This document shows, one piece after another, positions 2,885 to 23,635 of a stretch of 64,000 nucleotides of DNA (position 1 is its first letter; each line of letters starts with the position of its first letter). The notes under the pieces were generated by a model, which saw only the letters and a program-made list of their open reading frames with translations, had not been told where the DNA came from and did not search any database. This DNA comes from Escherichia coli. Lineage in GTDB: Bacteria > Pseudomonadota > Gammaproteobacteria > Enterobacterales > Enterobacteriaceae. The stretch is from the NCBI RefSeq assembly GCF_029227855.1, contig NZ_CP074356.1, one strand, 5' to 3'. The position numbers and the translations under genes were made by a program.

Positions 2885-3360
2885 GGTTAGCTCCGAAGCA
2901 AAAGCCGGATAATGTTAGCCATAAATAAGGTTGAAAAGACGCGCTGACAATACGCCTTTTGACAGCATTTTTCACCTCCTAACTACTTAAAATTGCTATC
3001 ATTCGTTATTGTTATCTGGTTGTGCAAAACATGCTAATGTAGCCACCAAATCATACTACAATTTATTAACTGTTAGCTATAATGGCGAAAAGCGATGCTG
3101 AAAGGTGTCAGCTTTGCAAAAATTTGATTTGGATCACGTAATCAGTACCCAGAAGTGAGTAATCTTGCTTACGCCACCTGGAAGTGACGCATTAGAGATA
3201 ATAACTCTAATGTTTAAACTCTTTTAGTAAATCACAGTGAGTGTGAGCGCGAGTAAGCTTTTGATTTTCATCGGTTAAGCAAATCATCACCGCACTGACT
3301 ATACTCTCGTATTCGAGCAGATGATTTACTAAAAAAGTTTAACATTATCAGGAGAGCATT

Positions 3361-16237: not shown

Positions 16238-17772
16238 GGGTGCGACTCCGTTTTGCTCGTTACGTCGATGGCATCGATACGGCGGCTGTTGAACAGATTG
16301 AATTTGGTATCTGAACCGTGGCAGCCATCACCAAAGGTAAAGCCGCAGCCATTTTTCTCCGGGAAGGCTTCCCGCGCCAGTTCACGATGACTGCTCGGCA
16401 CCACAAAGCGATCTTCGTAGTTAGCAATCGCCAGATAACGGTACATCTCCTGTGCCTGGGCTTCGGTCAGACCGACCTCTTCCAGCGCACGGGTATCGAC
16501 TTTACCGTCAACGGTTTCAGCACGTTTGTAATGACGCATCGCCAGCATACGTTTCAGCGCGCGCAGTACTGGTTTGGTATCACCGGCGGTCAGCAGATTC
16601 GCCAGATACTGTACCGGAATACGCAGACTTTCGACGTCTGGCAGAATGCCGTTGCTGCCCAGTTCACCCGCATCTGCCGCAGACTGAATCGGCGACAGAG
16701 GCGGCACGTACCAGACCATCGGCAGTGTGCGATATTCCGGATGCAGCGGCAGCGCCAGTTTCCATTCCATCGCCATTTTATAAACCGGCGACTGCTGTGC
16801 GGCTTCAATAACGCTCAGCGGAATACCGTCTTTAATTGCCTGCTCGATGACTTTCGGATCGTTCGGATCGAGGAACACCTCCAGCTGACGCTGGTAGAGA
16901 TCTTTCTCGTTCTCGGTGCTGGCTGCACGTTCAATGGCGTCGGCATCGTACAGCAGCACGCCGAGATAACGGATACGACCGACACAGGTTTCAGAGCACA
17001 CCGTCGGCTGACCGGCTTCAATACGCGGATAGCAGAAGATGCACTTCTCAGACTTACCGCTCTTCCAGTTGAAGTAGATTTTTTTGTACGGGCATCCGGT
17101 GATGCACATACGCCAGCCACGGCATTTATCCTGGTCGATCAGGACGATGCCATCTTCTTCACGCTTGTAAATCGCACCGCTCGGGCAGGTCGCCACACAT
17201 GCCGGGTTCAGGCAGTGTTCGCACAGGCGCGGCAAATACATCATGAAGGTGTTTTCGAACTGGCTATACATCGCCTTCTGGATGTTGTCGAAGTTCTTGT
17301 CTTTCGCCAGCTTGTCAAACTCACCGCCCAGGTCATCTTCCCAGTTCGGCCCTTTTTCGATTTTCGCCATCCGTTCGCCGGTAATCAGCGAACGCGGACG
17401 GGCAATCGGCTGCGATTTGCTGCCTTCCGGCGCGGTATGCAGGTTCTGATAATCAAAATCGAACGGCTCGTAATAATCGTCGATACCCGGCAGATGCGGG
17501 TTAGCAAAGATTTTACCCAGCAGCATGGCGCGGTTACCCATGCGCGGCTGCAGTTTGCCGTTGATTTTACGGATCCAGCCGCCTTTGTATTTTTCCTGGT
17601 TTTCCCAGTCAGTCGGGAAGCCCTGGCCCGGCTTGGTTTCCACGTTGTTGAACCACGCGTATTCCACACCTTCGCGGCTGGTCCAGACGTTTTTACAGGT
17701 AACTGAACAGGTGTGGCAGCCGATGCACTTATCGAGATTCAGCACCATGCCGACTTGTGAACGAATTTTCAT
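16234..17772 (-). CDS. narH: Respiratory nitrate reductase beta (Fe-S) subunit NarH
   Basis: 512 aa ORF with multiple CxxCxxCxxxCP ferredoxin-type cysteine clusters. Confidence 0.97.
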   Translation of the reverse strand: MKIRSQVGMVLNLDKCIGCHTCSVTCKNVWTSREGVEYAWFNNVETKPGQGFPTDWENQEKYKGGWIRKINGKLQPRMGNRAMLLGKIFANPHLPGIDDYYEPFDFDYQNLHTAPEGSKSQPIARPRSLITGERMAKIEKGPNWEDDLGGEFDKLAKDKNFDNIQKAMYSQFENTFMMYLPRLCEHCLNPACVATCPSGAIYKREEDGIVLIDQDKCRGWRMCITGCPYKKIYFNWKSGKSEKCIFCYPRIEAGQPTVCSETCVGRIRYLGVLLYDADAIERAASTENEKDLYQRQLEVFLDPNDPKVIEQAIKDGIPLSVIEAAQQSPVYKMAMEWKLALPLHPEYRTLPMVWYVPPLSPIQSAADAGELGSNGILPDVESLRIPVQYLANLLTAGDTKPVLRALKRMLAMRHYKRAETVDGKVDTRALEEVGLTEAQAQEMYRYLAIANYEDRFVVPSSHRELAREAFPEKNGCGFTFGDGCHGSDTKFNLFNSRRIDAIDVTSKTESHP

Positions 17773-20700
17773 TTTACGCTCTCCTGTACCTGGTCATTGC
17801 CTTCGCCATCTAACCAGTCAATGTTCTTCATCTTACGCACTACAACAAACTCATCGCGGTTAGAACCTACGGTGCCGTAGTAGTTAAAGCCGTATGCCAG
17901 ATGGGCATAGCCGCCGATCATATGCGTCGGTTTCGGCGTGATACGGGTGACCGAGTTATGGATACCACCACGCTGTTGGGTAATTTCCGAACCAGGCAGG
18001 TTAACGATACGTTCCTGCGCGTGGTACATCATGGTCATCCCTGCCGGAACACGCTGGCTGACAACCGCACGGGCAGTCAGAGCACCGTTGCTGTTGAAGA
18101 CTTCAATCCAGTCGTTATCGGCGATACCCAGCTCTTTGGCATCGGCTTCACTCAGCCAGACCACCGGACCACCGCGACCTAAAGTCAGCATCAGCAGGTT
18201 GTCGCTGTAGGTGGAGTGGATACCCCACTTCTGGTGCGGCGTCAGGAAGTTGAGCGCTTTTTCCGGGTTGCCATTGGATTTCTGGCCCATCACTTCTTTC
18301 ACCGAACGGGTGTCGATCGGCGGACGATAAACCAGCAGGCTTTCACCGAAATCACGCATCCATTGGTGATCCTGATACAGTTGCTGACGGCCAGAGAGCG
18401 TACGCCACGGGATCAGCTCGTGAATGTTGGTGTAACCGGCGTTGTAAGAAACGTGTTCATCTTCAAGGCCAGACCAGGTTGGGCTGGAGATGATTTTGCG
18501 CGGCTGTGCCTGAATATCGCGGAAGCGAATCTTCTCGTCTTCTTTATTCAGCGCCAGATGCGTATGGTCACGACCGGTAAACTCGCTCAGGGCAGCCCAG
18601 GCTTTCACGGCTACCTGACCGTTGGTTTCCGGTGCCAGCGTCAGGATCATCTCTGCCGCATCAATGGCGGTGTTCAGCATCGGCTGGCCTTTTGCCGGAC
18701 CTTCCGCTTTGGTGTAGTTGAGCTTACGCAGCAGATCCATCTCGCTCTGGGTGTTCCAGGCAATCCCTTTACCGCCGTTACCGATTTTCTCCATCAACGG
18801 GCCGATAGAGGTAAAGCGTTCGTAAGTTGCCGGATAATCGCGCTCTACGACCATAATGTGCGGTGCAGTTTTACCTGGGATCAGGTCGCATTCGCCTTTT
18901 TTCCAGTCTTTCACATCCAGCGGTTGCGCCAGTTCAGCGGCAGAGTCGTGCTGGATAGGCAGCGTGACGATGTCGGTTTCTTTACCCAGGTGGCCGACGC
19001 ACACTTCGGAGAATTTCTTCGCGATGGCTTTGTAGATTTCCCAGTCGCTTTTCGCTTCCCAGGCCGGATCGACCGCCGCAGACAGCGGGTGAATAAACGG
19101 ATGCATATCCGAAGTATTCATGTCGTCTTTTTCGTACCAGGTCGCCGTCGGCAAAATGATGTCGGAATAGAGACAGGTGCTCGACAGACGGAAGTCCAGC
19201 GTAACCACCAGATCCAGCTTGCCTTCCAGACCATTGTCCTGCCAGTCCACTTCTTCCGGCTTCACGCCGCCCTGCTGCCCCAGATCTTTACCCTGGATAC
19301 CGTGCTCCGTCCCCAGCAGGTACTTGAGCATAAACTCATGACCTTTACCGGAAGAACCGAGCAGGTTAGAACGCCAGATGAACAGGTTGCGCGGGTGGTT
19401 TTTACCGTTTTCCGGCTGTTCCGCAGCGAAACGGATAGAACCCTCTTTCAGGGATTTCACCGTATAGTCCACCGGATTCATCCCGGCTTTTTCTGCTTCG
19501 CGAGCGATAGTCAGCGGGTTAGTGCCTAACTGCGGCGCAGACGGCAGCCAGCCCATGCGTTCTGCACGGACGTTAAAGTCGATCAAGTGTCCGGTATAGC
19601 GAGATTTATCCGCCATCGGCGACAGCAGTTCTGCCGCAGTCACGGTTTCATAACGCCACTGGCTGGAGTGGTTATAGAAATAAGAGGTACTGTTCATGTG
19701 ACGCGCCGGACGCTGCCAGTCGAGGGCAAACGCCAGCGGCTGCCAGCCGGTTTGCGGACGCAGTTTTTCCTGACCTACATAGTGCGCCCAGCCCCCCCCG
19801 CTCTGACCGACACAGCCGCAGAAAATCAGCATGTTGATCAGACCACGATAGTTCATATCGAGGTGATACCAGTGGTTCAGCCCCGCACCGACGATAATCA
19901 TCGAACGACCGTGCGTCTTGTCAGCGTTATCGGCAAATTCACGGGCAATACGGATAATCTGGCTACGAGAAACGCCAGTGATTTGCTCGGCCCAGGCAGG
20001 GGTGTAAGCTTTCACGTCGTCATAGCTGGTTGCACAATTAACGTCGTTCAGGCCACGTTCCAGACCGTAGTTTGCCAGCGTCAGATCATAAACGGTGGTC
20101 ACCAGGGCGGTGCTGCCATCAGCCAGTTGCAAGCGTTTCACCGGCAGCTTGTGCAGCAGCACGTTTTCCAGTTCCACTTTGTTGAAGTGTTCCGTGCCGT
20201 CGCCACCAAAGTACGGGAAGCCCACCTCAGCGATCTCATCCTGGCTACCCAGCAGGCTCAGTTGCAGCTCGGTTTCTTCGCCAGTTTTGCCGTCGCGCTG
20301 TTCAAGATTCCATTTGCCCTTCTCGCCCCAGCGGAAGCCGATAGAACCGTTCGGCGCAACCATTTCGCCATTGGTATTAAAGGCGACAGTTTTCCATTCC
20401 GGATTGTTTTCCTGGCCCAGCGCATCCACCAGATCAGCAGCGCGCAGCATACGACCCGCAGCGTAGTAACCGTCGCGTTCTTCCAGCATCACCAGCATCG
20501 GCATGTCGGTGTAGCGACGCACATAGTCGGTGAAATACTGGCTTGGGTTGTCGAGGTGGAATTCACGCAGCATTACGTGGCCCATCGCCAGCGCCATTGC
20601 TGCGTCGGTGCCCTGTTTCGGTGCCAGCCACAGATCGCACAGTTTGGCGATTTCAGCGTAGTCCGGTGTGACGGCAACAGTTTTGGTGCCTTTGTAACGC

Positions 20701-21512
20701 ACTTCAGTAAAGAAGTGAGCATCCGGGGTACGCGTCTGCGGCACGTTTGAACCCCAGGCGATGATGTAGCTGGAGTTGTACCAGTCAGCAGATTCCGGTA
20801 CGTCAGTCTGCTCGCCCCAGGTTTGCGGAGATGCAGGAGGCAGGTCGCAGTACCAGTCGTAGAAGCTTAAGCAAGTACCGCCAAGCAGCGAGAGATAGCG
20901 CGCGCCGGAAGCGTAAGAAACCATCGACATTGCCGGAATTGGCGAGAAGCCAGCGACGCGGTCCGGGCCGTAGTTTTTGATGGTGTAAACGTTAGAGGCG
21001 GCGATCATTTCATTCACTTCCTGCCAGGAAGAACGAACAAAACCACCGCGTCCACGCGCCTGCTTAAAGCTTTTCGCTTTATCGGCGTCTTCAATGATAG
21101 AAGCCCATGCCTCAACCGGATCGCTATGCAGCGCCTTCGCTTCACGCCACATTTTCATCAGGCGTTTGCGCATCATCGGGTATTTCAGACGGTTGGCGCT
21201 GTAAAGATACCAGGAGTAGCTGGCACCACGCGGGCAGCCGCGAGGTTCATGGTTTGGCAGGTCCGGGCGAGTACGCGGATAGTCAGTCTGCTGGGTTTCC
21301 CAGGTCACCAGACCGTTTTTAACGTAGATTTTCCAGCTGCAGGAGCCGGTGCAGTTTACCCCGTGGGTAGAGCGGACGATTTTGTCATGCTGCCAACGCT
21401 GGCGATATCCATCCTCCCAGTCACGGTTGGTATTGAGAAGCTGGCCATGCCCATCGGCAAAGGTTTCACCCTTCTGTTTGAAGTAGCGAAACCGGTCCAG
21501 GAATTTACTCAT
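17769..21512 (-). CDS. narG: Respiratory nitrate reductase alpha (molybdopterin) subunit NarG
   Basis: 1247 aa ORF MSKFLDRFRYFKQKGETFADGHGQLLNTNRDWEDGYRQRWQHDKIVRSTHGVNCTGSCSW. Confidence 0.97.
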   Translation of the reverse strand: MSKFLDRFRYFKQKGETFADGHGQLLNTNRDWEDGYRQRWQHDKIVRSTHGVNCTGSCSWKIYVKNGLVTWETQQTDYPRTRPDLPNHEPRGCPRGASYSWYLYSANRLKYPMMRKRLMKMWREAKALHSDPVEAWASIIEDADKAKSFKQARGRGGFVRSSWQEVNEMIAASNVYTIKNYGPDRVAGFSPIPAMSMVSYASGARYLSLLGGTCLSFYDWYCDLPPASPQTWGEQTDVPESADWYNSSYIIAWGSNVPQTRTPDAHFFTEVRYKGTKTVAVTPDYAEIAKLCDLWLAPKQGTDAAMALAMGHVMLREFHLDNPSQYFTDYVRRYTDMPMLVMLEERDGYYAAGRMLRAADLVDALGQENNPEWKTVAFNTNGEMVAPNGSIGFRWGEKGKWNLEQRDGKTGEETELQLSLLGSQDEIAEVGFPYFGGDGTEHFNKVELENVLLHKLPVKRLQLADGSTALVTTVYDLTLANYGLERGLNDVNCATSYDDVKAYTPAWAEQITGVSRSQIIRIAREFADNADKTHGRSMIIVGAGLNHWYHLDMNYRGLINMLIFCGCVGQSGGGWAHYVGQEKLRPQTGWQPLAFALDWQRPARHMNSTSYFYNHSSQWRYETVTAAELLSPMADKSRYTGHLIDFNVRAERMGWLPSAPQLGTNPLTIAREAEKAGMNPVDYTVKSLKEGSIRFAAEQPENGKNHPRNLFIWRSNLLGSSGKGHEFMLKYLLGTEHGIQGKDLGQQGGVKPEEVDWQDNGLEGKLDLVVTLDFRLSSTCLYSDIILPTATWYEKDDMNTSDMHPFIHPLSAAVDPAWEAKSDWEIYKAIAKKFSEVCVGHLGKETDIVTLPIQHDSAAELAQPLDVKDWKKGECDLIPGKTAPHIMVVERDYPATYERFTSIGPLMEKIGNGGKGIAWNTQSEMDLLRKLNYTKAEGPAKGQPMLNTAIDAAEMILTLAPETNGQVAVKAWAALSEFTGRDHTHLALNKEDEKIRFRDIQAQPRKIISSPTWSGLEDEHVSYNAGYTNIHELIPWRTLSGRQQLYQDHQWMRDFGESLLVYRPPIDTRSVKEVMGQKSNGNPEKALNFLTPHQKWGIHSTYSDNLLMLTLGRGGPVVWLSEADAKELGIADNDWIEVFNSNGALTARAVVSQRVPAGMTMMYHAQERIVNLPGSEITQQRGGIHNSVTRITPKPTHMIGGYAHLAYGFNYYGTVGSNRDEFVVVRKMKNIDWLDGEGNDQVQESVK

Positions 21513-21603
21513 CGGTTTTCTCCTGTGGGAGCCTGTCGGCCCTCTGATAAATCGACATTGCTAATGTTTAAGGGCAAGGTAACGCTCTGAAACAGCGTGG
21601 GAA

Positions 21604-21617
21604 TTGATAACGATCAA
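21604..21617. promoter_or_regulatory. FNR box in the narG promoter (TTGATaacgATCAA)
   Basis: Perfect TTGAT-N4-ATCAA about 95 bp upstream of the narG ATG. Confidence 0.7.
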
Positions 21618-21654
21618 GAGTGATGGGGATGAAAAATAAAGTAAATTCCTAAGA

Positions 21655-21767
21655 TACCCCTTTAGGATAATTAACAGCCACAACATAACAGACTGTAAAT
21701 TAAGACGTTTTATACCTGTAGTTATTTAAACTATTAAGATTTTTATGCAGATGGGTATTAAGGAGTA
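21655..21767. promoter_or_regulatory. narG upstream control region with NarL heptamers
   Basis: TACCCCT at 21655-21661 and TACTCCT (reverse complement) at 21761-21767 match the NarL heptamer consensus TACYYMT. Confidence 0.5.
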
Positions 21768-21856
21768 TTCCCCATGGGTAACATATTAATGGCTCTTAAT
21801 GAAATCCGGCGAAATAAGCCACTCACACATGAGTATGTTGTAACTAAACGACAGAT

Positions 21857-21882
21857 AAAAAAAGCGCGACATCATGCCGCGC
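21857..21882 (-). terminator. narK rho-independent terminator
   Basis: On the minus strand GCGCGGCATGATGTCGCGC followed by UUUUUUU, ~25 nt after the narK stop. Confidence 0.6.
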
Positions 21883-21905
21883 AAAGGATAATCAAATATT
21901 AAGAT

Positions 21906-23297
21906 TTATTTTTTAGAATGCCGACCATATACCGCCCAAGTAATCACTACACAGGCGATATAGAAAATCAAAAATACTTTCATTGCGCCGACTGGCGAAC
22001 CCGTTAATGCCAGCGAGCTACCGAACGCTTTCGGGATAAAGAAGCCACCAATCGCGCCAATCGCAGAGATGAAACCCAGCGCCGCCGCCGTGTCGGTTGC
22101 TGCTTCACGCATCGCACGTTCGTCAGAACCCCCTTCTGCTTTCACGCGATCCATTGTCAGTTTACGGAAGATCACGGAAATCATCTGGAAAGTGGAACCA
22201 CTACCCAGCCCAGCTGTCAGGAACAGCGCCAGGAAGACTGCGAAGAACGCCATGAAGCTTCCGCCCTGTCCGTCAGTCGGTAAGGTCAGGAACAGCAGGC
22301 CGCTGAAAATTGCCATCAGAATAAAGTTCACCAGCGTGACACGAGTTCCGCCAAGACGGTCAGATAATGCACCACCTGCAGAACGCGCCAGCGCACCAAT
22401 AAACGGCCCGAAGAAAGCGTATTGCAGAATCTGAACATCCGGGAACTGCGTTTTTGACAGCATCGCAAAGCCCGCGGAGAAGCCGATGAAGGAGCCGAAG
22501 GTTGCCAGATACAGCAGGCTCATAATCCACAGATGACCCCGTTTGAGTACCGGCAACTGCTCCTTGATGGAGGCTTTCGAGGTAGCAAGATCGTTCATGC
22601 CAAACCACGCCGCAATGGTGAAGATGGCAAGGAACGGCACCCATACCCAGGACGCATTCGCCAGATACAGCTCAGTCCCATCCGGCTGTTTGACACCCTG
22701 GCTACCAAATACTGCGAAAATCGACAGTGATACCACCAGCGGAGCAACCAACTGCATGACGCTGACGCCCATGTTGCCCAGACCACCATTCAGACCCAGC
22801 GCGCCACCCTGCTTCTGTTTCGGAAAGAAGAAGCTGATGTTTGCCATACTGGAAGCGAAGTTCGCGCCAGCAAAGCCGCACAGTAGAGAGATGATGATGA
22901 AGACGCTATAAGGCGTGGAGGTATCCTGCACGGCAAAACCCAGCCAGACGCAAGGAATAATCAGAATACCGGTGCTGAACGCCGTCCAGCGACGACCACC
23001 GAAGATAGGAACCATAAAGGAGTATGGAACACGTAATAACGCGCCAGAAACCGAAGGCAGCGCAGTCAACATAAATAGCTGATCGGTCGTAAAATTAAAA
23101 CCGACTTTCGGTAAGTTCACCGCAACAGCGCTGAACAACATCCATACGCAAAACGCCAGCAGCAGACAGGGAACGGAAATCCACAGGTTGCGGCTGGCAA
23201 TACGTTGACCGCGTTGTTGCCAGAACGCAGGATCTTCCGGTCGCCAATCTGTAATGACAGCTCCAGTAGCCCTTTCGGGGGCGGATGAGTGACTCAT
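21906..23297 (-). CDS. narK: Nitrate/nitrite antiporter NarK (MFS)
   Basis: 463 aa from the second Met, MSHSSAPERATGAVITDWRPEDPAFW; ORF track version starts two codons earlier. Confidence 0.95.
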   Translation of the reverse strand: MSHSSAPERATGAVITDWRPEDPAFWQQRGQRIASRNLWISVPCLLLAFCVWMLFSAVAVNLPKVGFNFTTDQLFMLTALPSVSGALLRVPYSFMVPIFGGRRWTAFSTGILIIPCVWLGFAVQDTSTPYSVFIIISLLCGFAGANFASSMANISFFFPKQKQGGALGLNGGLGNMGVSVMQLVAPLVVSLSIFAVFGSQGVKQPDGTELYLANASWVWVPFLAIFTIAAWFGMNDLATSKASIKEQLPVLKRGHLWIMSLLYLATFGSFIGFSAGFAMLSKTQFPDVQILQYAFFGPFIGALARSAGGALSDRLGGTRVTLVNFILMAIFSGLLFLTLPTDGQGGSFMAFFAVFLALFLTAGLGSGSTFQMISVIFRKLTMDRVKAEGGSDERAMREAATDTAAALGFISAIGAIGGFFIPKAFGSSLALTGSPVGAMKVFLIFYIACVVITWAVYGRHSKK

Positions 23298-23356: not shown

Positions 23357-23370
23357 TTGATGTAAATCAA
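23357..23370. promoter_or_regulatory. FNR box in the narK promoter (TTGATgtaaATCAA)
   Basis: Perfect TTGAT-N4-ATCAA about 60 bp upstream of the narK start codon. Confidence 0.7.
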
Positions 23371-23635
23371 ACGATAAGATAACTTTATCTATCATTGATA
23401 TTTATCATTACCCATAGTGAGTACAGTGATTTCATAAAAATTATGAGATTTTTCACGGTGCTGTAAAATCCCTACCCTTACCGATGTAAAGCGACTAACC
23501 ACGCGGCAAATAAGGAGTAACTCTTTCCGGGTATGGGTATACTTCAGCCAATAGCCGAGAATACTGCCATTCCAGAATGTATCGCCACATTCATTAAGGT
23601 TATTGCTCATTTAAAGCCTGAAGGAAGAGGTTTAC

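What the first reader, a model, noticed from the sequence alone, without database searches (positions are those of the whole stretch)
21800..21905. narK 3' UTR with strong terminator: candidate 3'UTR-derived sRNA
The ~50 nt between the narK stop and its rho-independent terminator forms the type of 3' UTR from which a processed sRNA (NarS, described in Salmonella as I recall) is generated. Conservation of this segment in this strain would predict the same mRNA cross-regulation during nitrate respiration.
Basis: established knowledge. Interest (0 to 1): 0.2.

Follow-up and report, generated by a model that had tools for sequence, protein, structure and literature searches.

The report
NarS small RNA at narK's end
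The tail of the nitrate-transporter gene narK in this E. coli window encodes the already-described small RNA NarS, which should silence the nitrite importer gene nirC, so the finding is correct but ordinary.

Summary
The window is E. coli. narK lies on the minus strand, with its stop codon at 21908-21906. It is followed by a 49-nt 3' UTR: a 23-nt spacer, an 8-bp GC-rich hairpin (21882-21864) and a U7 tract (21863-21857).

A 21-nt block covering the NarS seed (UUUGAUUAUCCUUU, 21896-21883) and the 5' arm of the hairpin is identical to Salmonella enterica. The RNase E site context CAU|UC inside the narK coding sequence is also kept. The seed is a perfect 14-nt complement of the E. coli nirC ribosome-binding site and start codon.

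MG1655 already carries an annotated narS gene (b4813, 184 nt). By homology, NarS-S in the window is 21917-21857 (61 nt).

Three corrections to the finding:
- The feature is on the minus strand.
- The RNA starts 9 nt inside the coding sequence.
- 21800-21856 lies beyond the terminator and is not RNA. It holds the Tus-binding replication terminator TerD (21828-21850).

One new detail: the window lacks the 123-nt ERIC repeat that splits the K-12 narK 3' UTR. That repeat is present in 2457 of 5416 complete E. coli genomes. The window's NarS is therefore the short, Salmonella-like form.

Expression, processing and Hfq binding were not testable here.

The parts
21857..21917 (-). Predicted NarS-S, the mature 61-nt sRNA: UCUAAAAAAUAAAUCUUAAUAUUUGAUUAUCCUUUGCGCGGCAUGAUGUCGCGCUUUUUUU
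   Evidence: Both ends are set by homology to MG1655 ncRNA narS b4813 (1279337-1279520, and the table in PMC8175672) with the 123-nt K-12 insertion removed. It shares 50 of 62 aligned columns with Salmonella NarS-S.
21857..21968 (-). Predicted NarS-L precursor, 112 nt
   Evidence: The K-12 NarS-L 5' end is given as 1279286 in PMC8175672, 51 nt upstream of the NarS-S end. Transferred to the window this gives 112 nt, matching the ~110-nt Salmonella NarS-L. This is inferred from homology only.
21916..21921 (-). Putative RNase E processing site GCAU|UC, with the cut between 21918 and 21917, inside narK codons His-Ser
   Evidence: The Salmonella site is UCAUUC, and mutating UUC to CAG abolishes NarS-S. 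The window keeps CAUUC, and the K-12 annotated 5' end falls at the same base. Cleavage itself was not testable.
21883..21896 (-). Seed UUUGAUUAUCCUUU (nt 22-35 of NarS-S)
   Evidence: It is identical to Salmonella. The core UGAUUAUCC is at least 90% conserved across 31 sequences. It is a perfect 14-nt complement of E. coli nirC AAAGGAUAAUCAAA. The duplex energy is -21.2 kcal/mol, reached by 0 of 1000 shuffles. Mean unpaired probability over the seed is 0.71.
21864..21882 (-). Rho-independent terminator hairpin GCGCGGCA-UGA-UGUCGCGC
   Evidence: Supported by the terminator scan, the fold and covariation across 31 sequences.
21857..21863 (-). U7 tail, the expected Hfq-binding 3' end
   Evidence: Read directly from the sequence. 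[quoted passage not shown] Binding was not testable here.
21906..23297 (-). narK coding sequence, the parent mRNA (463 aa)
   Evidence: Supported by the ORF list, the RefSeq annotation of an identical locus and protein matches of 94-100% to NarK.
23357..23408 (.). narK promoter region with two FNR-type boxes: TTGATGTAAATCAA at 23357-23370 (perfect) and TTGATATTTATCAT at 23395-23408 (one mismatch)
   Evidence: Found by pattern search. NarS expression in Salmonella depends on the narK promoter, FNR and NarL.
21828..21850 (+). Neighbouring element that is not part of the RNA: the Tus-binding replication terminator TerD, CATGAGTATGTTGTAACTAAACG
   Evidence: The 17-nt core AGTATGTTGTAACTAAA is identical to the TerB sequence printed in PMC4499146. 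The block is invariant in 31 narK-narG spacers. It starts 6 nt after the U tract. The name TerD rests on my recollection of the K-12 TerD sequence, which matches L089 2528-2550.

Best explanation
[quoted passage not shown] The proposed mechanism has four steps:

1. Under anaerobic nitrate conditions, FNR and NarL switch on narK.
2. Transcription stops at the hairpin plus U7 terminator (21882-21857).
3. RNase E cuts inside the last narK codons (GCAU|UC, 21918/21917) and releases a 61-nt RNA, probably via a 112-nt intermediate.
4. The single-stranded seed UUUGAUUAUCCUUU pairs with the Shine-Dalgarno sequence and start codon of nirC in the nirBDC-cysG mRNA. This blocks translation of the nitrite importer while NarK is being made.

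What was shown here: the anatomy, the identity of the seed and terminator with Salmonella, the conserved cut-site context, and perfect complementarity to a conserved E. coli nirC site.

What is inferred from published Salmonella and K-12 work: expression, RNase E cleavage, Hfq binding and repression of nirC.
For: Anatomy and conservation:
- The sequence anatomy is set out.
- The segment aligns with Salmonella at 50 of 62 columns, with a 21-nt identical block over the seed and stem.
- MG1655 annotates narS b4813 at the homologous position, and PMC8175672 gives matching K-12 coordinates.
- The segment is present in 5410 of 5426 E. coli genomes at 95% identity or better in all but one record.
- The terminator shows covariation across genera.
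- FNR boxes are intact in the narK promoter.

Target pairing:
- The seed forms a 14-nt perfect duplex with E. coli nirC. The energy is -21.2 kcal/mol against a shuffle mean of -7.7, and 0 of 1000 shuffles reach it. Among 2556 background windows only the RNA's own antisense scores better.
- The nirC site is identical in Salmonella. A 10-nt core is kept in an Enterobacter-type locus. The site is absent in a Klebsiella oxytoca-type locus, and that genus also lacks the seed.
- The seed is predicted to be mostly unpaired.

Published experiments (PMC7038943):
- NarS depends on RNase E and Hfq, represses nirC, and loses that activity when the seed is mutated.
- E. coli RIL-seq detected the NarS-nirC pair.
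Against:
- The base before the cut-site motif differs from Salmonella (G instead of U).
- The 5' 21 nt of the RNA are only loosely conserved.
- Functional tests were done in Salmonella. The E. coli evidence comes from K-12, whose NarS carries a 123-nt ERIC insert that this window lacks.
- No Rfam 15 family matches the segment. The best hits are far below their gathering scores and align mainly the terminator hairpin and U-tract, with A/U-rich sequence upstream.
- nirC of this exact strain was not retrieved. Only species-wide conservation was checked.
Confidence: 0.9

Rival explanations
1. The segment is only the narK transcription terminator. Any 3' fragment is a decay by-product with no regulatory role in E. 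coli.
For: A strong terminator is expected after narK regardless of any sRNA. Genera without the seed (Klebsiella, Kluyvera, Raoultella terrigena) have an equivalent terminator at the same place. No RNA data were available for this strain.
Against: The 14-nt spacer just 5' of the hairpin is identical to Salmonella and is a perfect complement of nirC, which 0 of 1000 shuffles reach. The seed and the target site occur together across genera. The NarS paper states that published E. coli RIL-seq data support the NarS-nirC pair.
Confidence: 0.07
2. Conservation of the interval reflects DNA-level elements, namely the TerD Tus-binding site and narG upstream regulatory DNA, rather than an RNA.
Against: The Ter site lies beyond the U tract and explains only 21828-21850. 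The seed block is separate, lies on the transcribed side of the terminator, and is absent in genera that still keep Ter. Both elements are real and sit side by side.
Confidence: 0.02
3. The plus-strand ORF at 21774-21902 (42 aa, preceded by AAGGAG) encodes a small protein antisense to the narK terminator.
For: The ORF is listed, and a Shine-Dalgarno-like AAGGAG lies 8 nt before its ATG.
Against: A 1-nt indel truncates it to 22 aa in MG1655, and its start could not be found in three other Escherichia loci. It is not annotated in the identical RefSeq locus. The AAGGAG is the reverse complement of TACTCCT, which I recall as a NarL heptamer of the narG upstream region (from memory, not tested).
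Confidence: 0.01

Closest known systems
Salmonella enterica NarS (STnc2040; Wang, Chao, Matera, Gao, Vogel, NAR 2020, PMC7038943)
   Same: Both sit at the narK 3' end on the same strand. They share the seed UUUGAUUAUCCUUU, the lower terminator stem GCGCGG/CGCGC (the sixth pair is G-U in the window and G-C in Salmonella), the CAUUCU cut-site context, nearly the same distance from the 5' end to the seed (nt 22 versus 21), and the identical nirC target site.
   Different: NarK is two residues shorter here, so the stop codon sits at a different position within the RNA. The 5' 21 nt and the hairpin loop differ. The tail is U7 here and U8 in Salmonella. No experiments exist for this allele.
E. coli K-12 narS (b4813, 184 nt; NarS-L 235 nt)
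   Same: It is the same gene, with the same 5' and 3' ends, seed and terminator.
   Different: K-12 carries a 123-nt ERIC-type repeat between the stop codon and the seed, and the window does not. 2457 of 5416 genomes have the K-12 form and the rest have the short form seen here.
Other RNase E-processed, Hfq-dependent 3' UTR sRNAs (CpxQ, SdhX, SroC, MalH; review PMC9438474)
   Same: They share the architecture: the parent mRNA's terminator serves as the Hfq module, the seed lies just upstream of it, the 5' end is made by RNase E near the stop codon, and the function is cross-regulation within the parent gene's pathway.
   Different: They have different parent genes, seeds and targets, and no sequence relationship to NarS.

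Membership tests
NarS (narK 3' UTR-derived sRNA) | Encoded at the 3' end of narK on the sense strand, ending at the narK Rho-independent terminator | tested here: met
   narK is 21906-23297 on the minus strand, and the hairpin plus U7 lie at 21882-21857 on the same strand.
NarS (narK 3' UTR-derived sRNA) | A conserved single-stranded seed just upstream of the terminator hairpin | tested here: met
   UUUGAUUAUCCUUU at 21896-21883 is identical to Salmonella. Its mean unpaired probability is 0.71 and its opening energy is 1.3 kcal/mol.
NarS (narK 3' UTR-derived sRNA) | The seed is complementary to the Shine-Dalgarno and start-codon region of nirC (a 14-bp duplex in Salmonella) | tested here: met
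   E. coli nirC reads aaaggataatcaaATG, giving 14 perfect pairs. The duplex energy is -21.2 kcal/mol, reached by 0 of 1000 shuffles. The 101-nt nirC stretch containing the site is found in 5425 of 5426 genomes. nirC of this exact strain was not retrieved.
NarS (narK 3' UTR-derived sRNA) | The 5' end is generated by RNase E at UCAU|UC inside the last narK codons | tested here: inconclusive
   The sequence context is kept (GCAU|UC at 21921-21916), and the K-12 annotated 5' end maps to the same base. Cleavage itself cannot be tested with these tools.
NarS (narK 3' UTR-derived sRNA) | Hfq-dependent stability and binding at the poly-U tail | not testable with these tools
   A U7 tail and hairpin are present. 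Binding has been shown only for Salmonella and K-12.
NarS (narK 3' UTR-derived sRNA) | Expression driven solely by the FNR- and NarL-dependent narK promoter, with induction under anaerobiosis and nitrate | tested here: inconclusive
   FNR-type boxes lie upstream of narK at 23357-23370 and 23395-23408. No sigma-70-like promoter was found in 21300-22400. Expression was not measurable.
NarS (narK 3' UTR-derived sRNA) | Repression of NirC synthesis in vivo | not testable with these tools
   This has been shown in Salmonella. The NarS paper states that E. coli RIL-seq data support the NarS-nirC pairing.
Tus-Ter replication terminator (the neighbouring element TerD) | A 23-bp site with the conserved core GTATGTTGTAACTAA and G at position 6 | tested here: met
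   Window 21828-21850 reads CATGAGTATGTTGTAACTAAACG. Positions 5-21 are identical to the TerB sequence printed in PMC4499146 and G6 is present. The two differences from the K-12 allele, at positions 4 and 22, lie in the outer bases that PMC8347550 says make little contact with Tus.

The most novel reading that the evidence does not exclude
The narK terminator, and so the NarS 3' end, may form a conserved two-part module with the TerD site. The Ter core sits 9-12 nt after the U tract in 34 of 35 enterobacterial narK loci. This includes genera that never acquired the NarS seed.

narK transcription approaches Ter from its permissive face. The strong terminator may therefore shield the Tus-Ter complex from being swept off by RNA polymerase. 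Conversely, bound Tus may act as a roadblock that reinforces termination and NarS 3'-end formation.

Separately, the ERIC presence/absence polymorphism gives a 61-nt and a 184-nt NarS in about 55% and 45% of E. coli genomes, and this could change NarS dosage or processing between lineages.
Probability: 0.2. Interest if true: 0.4.

Novelty: already known. Interest (0 to 1): 0.12.

Why it matters
This adds little new biology. NarS was characterised in Salmonella in 2020 and is annotated in E. coli K-12. The result confirms that this strain should run the same narK-to-nirC cross-regulation, which limits nitrite uptake during nitrate respiration.

Two points have some practical use. First, roughly half of complete E. 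coli genomes, including this one, the O157:H7 ATCC 43890 row and the UPEC 536 row, carry the short Salmonella-like NarS rather than the ERIC-interrupted K-12 form. That matters for anyone extrapolating K-12 sRNA maps to other strains. Second, conservation just downstream of the terminator is due to TerD and should not be counted as evidence for the sRNA.

Tried and rejected
- **Rfam 15 scan of 21300-22400 at E-value up to 10.** There is no NarS family. The only hits are sub-threshold matches (L20 leader, RyhB, rseX, PrrF) far below their gathering scores, which align mainly the terminator hairpin and U-tract with A/U-rich sequence upstream. I rejected them as chance.
- **Genome-contig scan with NarK.** I obtained Salmonella through the protein search and the contig look-up instead.
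- **Full-text searches for the seed sequence and for the exact TerD 23-mer.** Neither found anything relevant. The name TerD therefore rests on my memory of the published K-12 Ter table plus the TerB core match.
- **Supplementary files of the NarS paper.** They are not held, so the published alignment could not be read.
- **The plus-strand 42-aa ORF.** Rejected because it is frameshifted in K-12.
- **A transcription-factor site as the explanation for the conserved block after the terminator.** I considered NarL, ArcA and ModE motifs from memory and dropped the idea once the literature search identified the block as Ter.
- **nirC of the exact strain (CFSAN018748-like).** I did not fetch it because its coordinates were unknown, and used species-wide conservation instead.

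Full report
**What is at the coordinates**

The window is E. coli. A 601-nt stretch around the finding is 100% identical to strain CFSAN018748 and matches 5415 of 5426 complete genomes. narK is on the minus strand at 21906-23297, and narG follows on the same strand at 17769-21512.

Reading the minus strand after the narK stop codon (TAA, 21908-21906) gives three parts:
- AUCUUAAUAUUUGAUUAUCCUUU, a 23-nt spacer;
- the hairpin GCGCGGCAUGAUGUCGCGC at 21882-21864, with 8 pairs, 6 of them G-C;
- U7 at 21863-21857.

The 3' UTR is therefore 49 nt.

The hairpin is better than chance. It folds at -13.6 kcal/mol with z = -2.49. Across 31 enterobacterial sequences it is 89.8% paired. Four of its pairs show compensatory changes, which 3 of 500 shuffles reach, and the slid controls are far lower.

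**Comparison with Salmonella NarS**

The NarS paper (PMC7038943) describes a 63-nt NarS-S and a ~110-nt NarS-L. Both are released by RNase E, and the NarS-S site is UCAUUC inside the narK coding sequence. The RNA is Hfq-dependent, and its seed forms a 14-bp duplex over the nirC Shine-Dalgarno sequence. The seed mutant is U26U27 to CC.

I retrieved a Salmonella enterica narK locus (L084). Its sequence reads cgt cat tct aaa aat aaa aag TAA cttttgattatcctttgcgcggcgttagaccgcgctttttttt. Numbering from the U of UCU puts the UU of GAUUA at positions 26-27 and the seed at 21-34, which matches the paper.

The window keeps CAUUCU and places the seed at nt 22-35. It shares 50 of 62 aligned columns with Salmonella NarS-S. 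This includes a 21-nt identical run, UUUGAUUAUCCUUUGCGCGGC.

**NarS is already annotated in E. coli**

The MG1655 RefSeq record carries ncRNA narS (b4813) at 1279337-1279520, 184 nt. Its first base is the U of the UCU codon and its last base is the last U of the U7 tract. A table in PMC8175672 gives the same NarS-S coordinates and places the NarS-L 5' end at 1279286.

Transferring these ends to the window gives NarS-S at 21917-21857 (61 nt) and NarS-L at 21968-21857 (112 nt).

**The target**

The E. coli nirC 5' region reads ...uuuuuuaaaggauaaucaaAUGuuu. AAAGGAUAAUCAAA is the exact complement of the seed.

- The duplex energy of the unstructured 5' 37 nt of NarS with nirC positions -60 to +40 is -21.2 kcal/mol.
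- The shuffle mean is -7.7 with sd 2.2, and 0 of 1000 shuffles reach the observed value.
- Among 2556 background 100-nt windows, only the RNA's own antisense scores better.

The 101-nt stretch containing the nirC site is found in 5425 of 5426 E. coli genomes, and 4848 records are at least 99% identical.

The site is identical in a Salmonella locus. It is kept as a 10-nt core (GGAUAAUCAA) in an Enterobacter-type locus. It is absent in a Klebsiella oxytoca-type locus.

The seed has the same distribution. It is present in Escherichia, Salmonella, Citrobacter, Enterobacter, Lelliottia, Leclercia, Kosakonia, Cedecea and others. It is absent from Klebsiella, Raoultella and Kluyvera. This agrees with the published distribution.

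The seed is predicted to be largely unpaired in both the 61-nt form and the K-12 184-nt form.

**How this window differs from K-12**

Aligning the window with a K-12-type locus shows a 123-nt insertion in K-12 immediately after the narK stop codon. The NarS paper calls this a "170-nt insertion" and gives the K-12 RNA as ~230 nt. That figure fits NarS-L (235 nt) compared with the 63-nt NarS-S.

The inserted sequence is a dispersed repeat, with a median of 10 places per E. coli genome. It contains CACCCCAGTCACTTACTT...TAAGCTCCTGGG-ATTCA. I recognise this as the ERIC/IRU core because it matches the ERIC1R and ERIC2 primer sequences. That identification is from memory and was not checked against a database.

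The insertion is present in the narK 3' UTR of 2457 of 5416 genomes. The others, including this window, O157:H7 ATCC 43890 and UPEC 536, carry the short allele. E. albertii and two other Escherichia loci also have the empty site, so the short form looks ancestral.

The most conserved block in the interval is not RNA. TAGTTACAACAT-CT (minus strand, 21846-21832) is invariant in 31 sequences. On the plus strand, 21828-21850 reads CATGAGTATGTTGTAACTAAACG. Its core is identical to TerB, the Tus-binding replication terminator, as printed in PMC4499146.

The K-12 allele, CATTAGTATGTTGTAACTAAATG, is what I recall as TerD. The window differs from it only at outer positions 4 and 22, which make little contact with Tus according to PMC8347550.

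The Ter core lies 9-12 nt after the terminator U tract in 34 of 35 loci. This includes genera that lack the NarS seed. narK transcription approaches the site from its position-23 end, which is the permissive face. Tus is a known RNA polymerase roadblock (Guajardo and Sousa 1999, cited in PMC10310618). A functional link between the terminator and Ter is possible but untested.

**Rivals**

- A plain terminator with no sRNA function does not explain a 14-nt spacer that is identical to Salmonella and perfectly complementary to nirC.
- DNA-level conservation explains only the Ter block, not the seed.
- The plus-strand 42-aa ORF at 21774-21902 is truncated to 22 aa in MG1655 and is not annotated in the identical RefSeq locus.
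- No Rfam 15 family matches the segment.

**Verdict**

The feature is the known sRNA NarS in its short, ERIC-free allele. Expression, RNase E cleavage, Hfq binding and nirC repression in this strain are inferred from published Salmonella and K-12 work and were not tested here. Interest is low.

Noticed in passing
Its core is invariant in 31 enterobacterial narK-narG spacers. That makes it syntenic in Salmonella, Citrobacter, Enterobacter, Klebsiella oxytoca, Kluyvera and Cedecea.
   Followed up: partly
L001 399-521 / L089 2352-2476, against window 21900-21905: K-12 has a 123-nt ERIC-type dispersed repeat inserted between the narK stop codon and the NarS seed, and the window does not. 2457 of 5416 complete E. 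coli genomes carry it. The repeat family has a median of 10 places per genome.
   Followed up: yes
L008, L010, L011 and L077, about 2893-3020: Four Citrobacter freundii-complex genomes carry a ~119-nt ERIC-type element at the same place (between the narK stop codon and the seed) but in the opposite orientation to K-12. This suggests independent insertions into the same 3' UTR.
   Followed up: partly
L085 380-480 and L088 400-480: The nirD-nirC spacers of the Salmonella locus and the Kluyvera-type locus also contain an ERIC-like element (ccccaggagcatag...gtgactgggg) just upstream of the NarS target site. The E. coli spacer has a T-rich tract there instead.
   Followed up: no
window 21774-21902 (+): A 42-aa ORF antisense to the terminator and Ter site has AAGGAG 8 nt before its ATG. 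It is truncated to 22 aa in MG1655 and is not annotated. The AAGGAG is the complement of TACTCCT, which I recall as a NarL heptamer of the narG upstream region.
   Followed up: yes
PMC7038943 compared with L089: The NarS paper describes a '170-nt insertion' and a ~230-nt K-12 NarS. The measured insertion is 123 nt, the annotated NarS-S is 184 nt and NarS-L is 235 nt. The published figure appears to compare K-12 NarS-L with Salmonella NarS-S.
   Followed up: yes
window 21604-21617, 23357-23370 and 23395-23408: Perfect FNR-type boxes (TTGAT-N4-ATCAA) lie upstream of narG and narK, and a one-mismatch box lies upstream of narK. The window has 7 such matches against 2.65 expected by chance.
   Followed up: no
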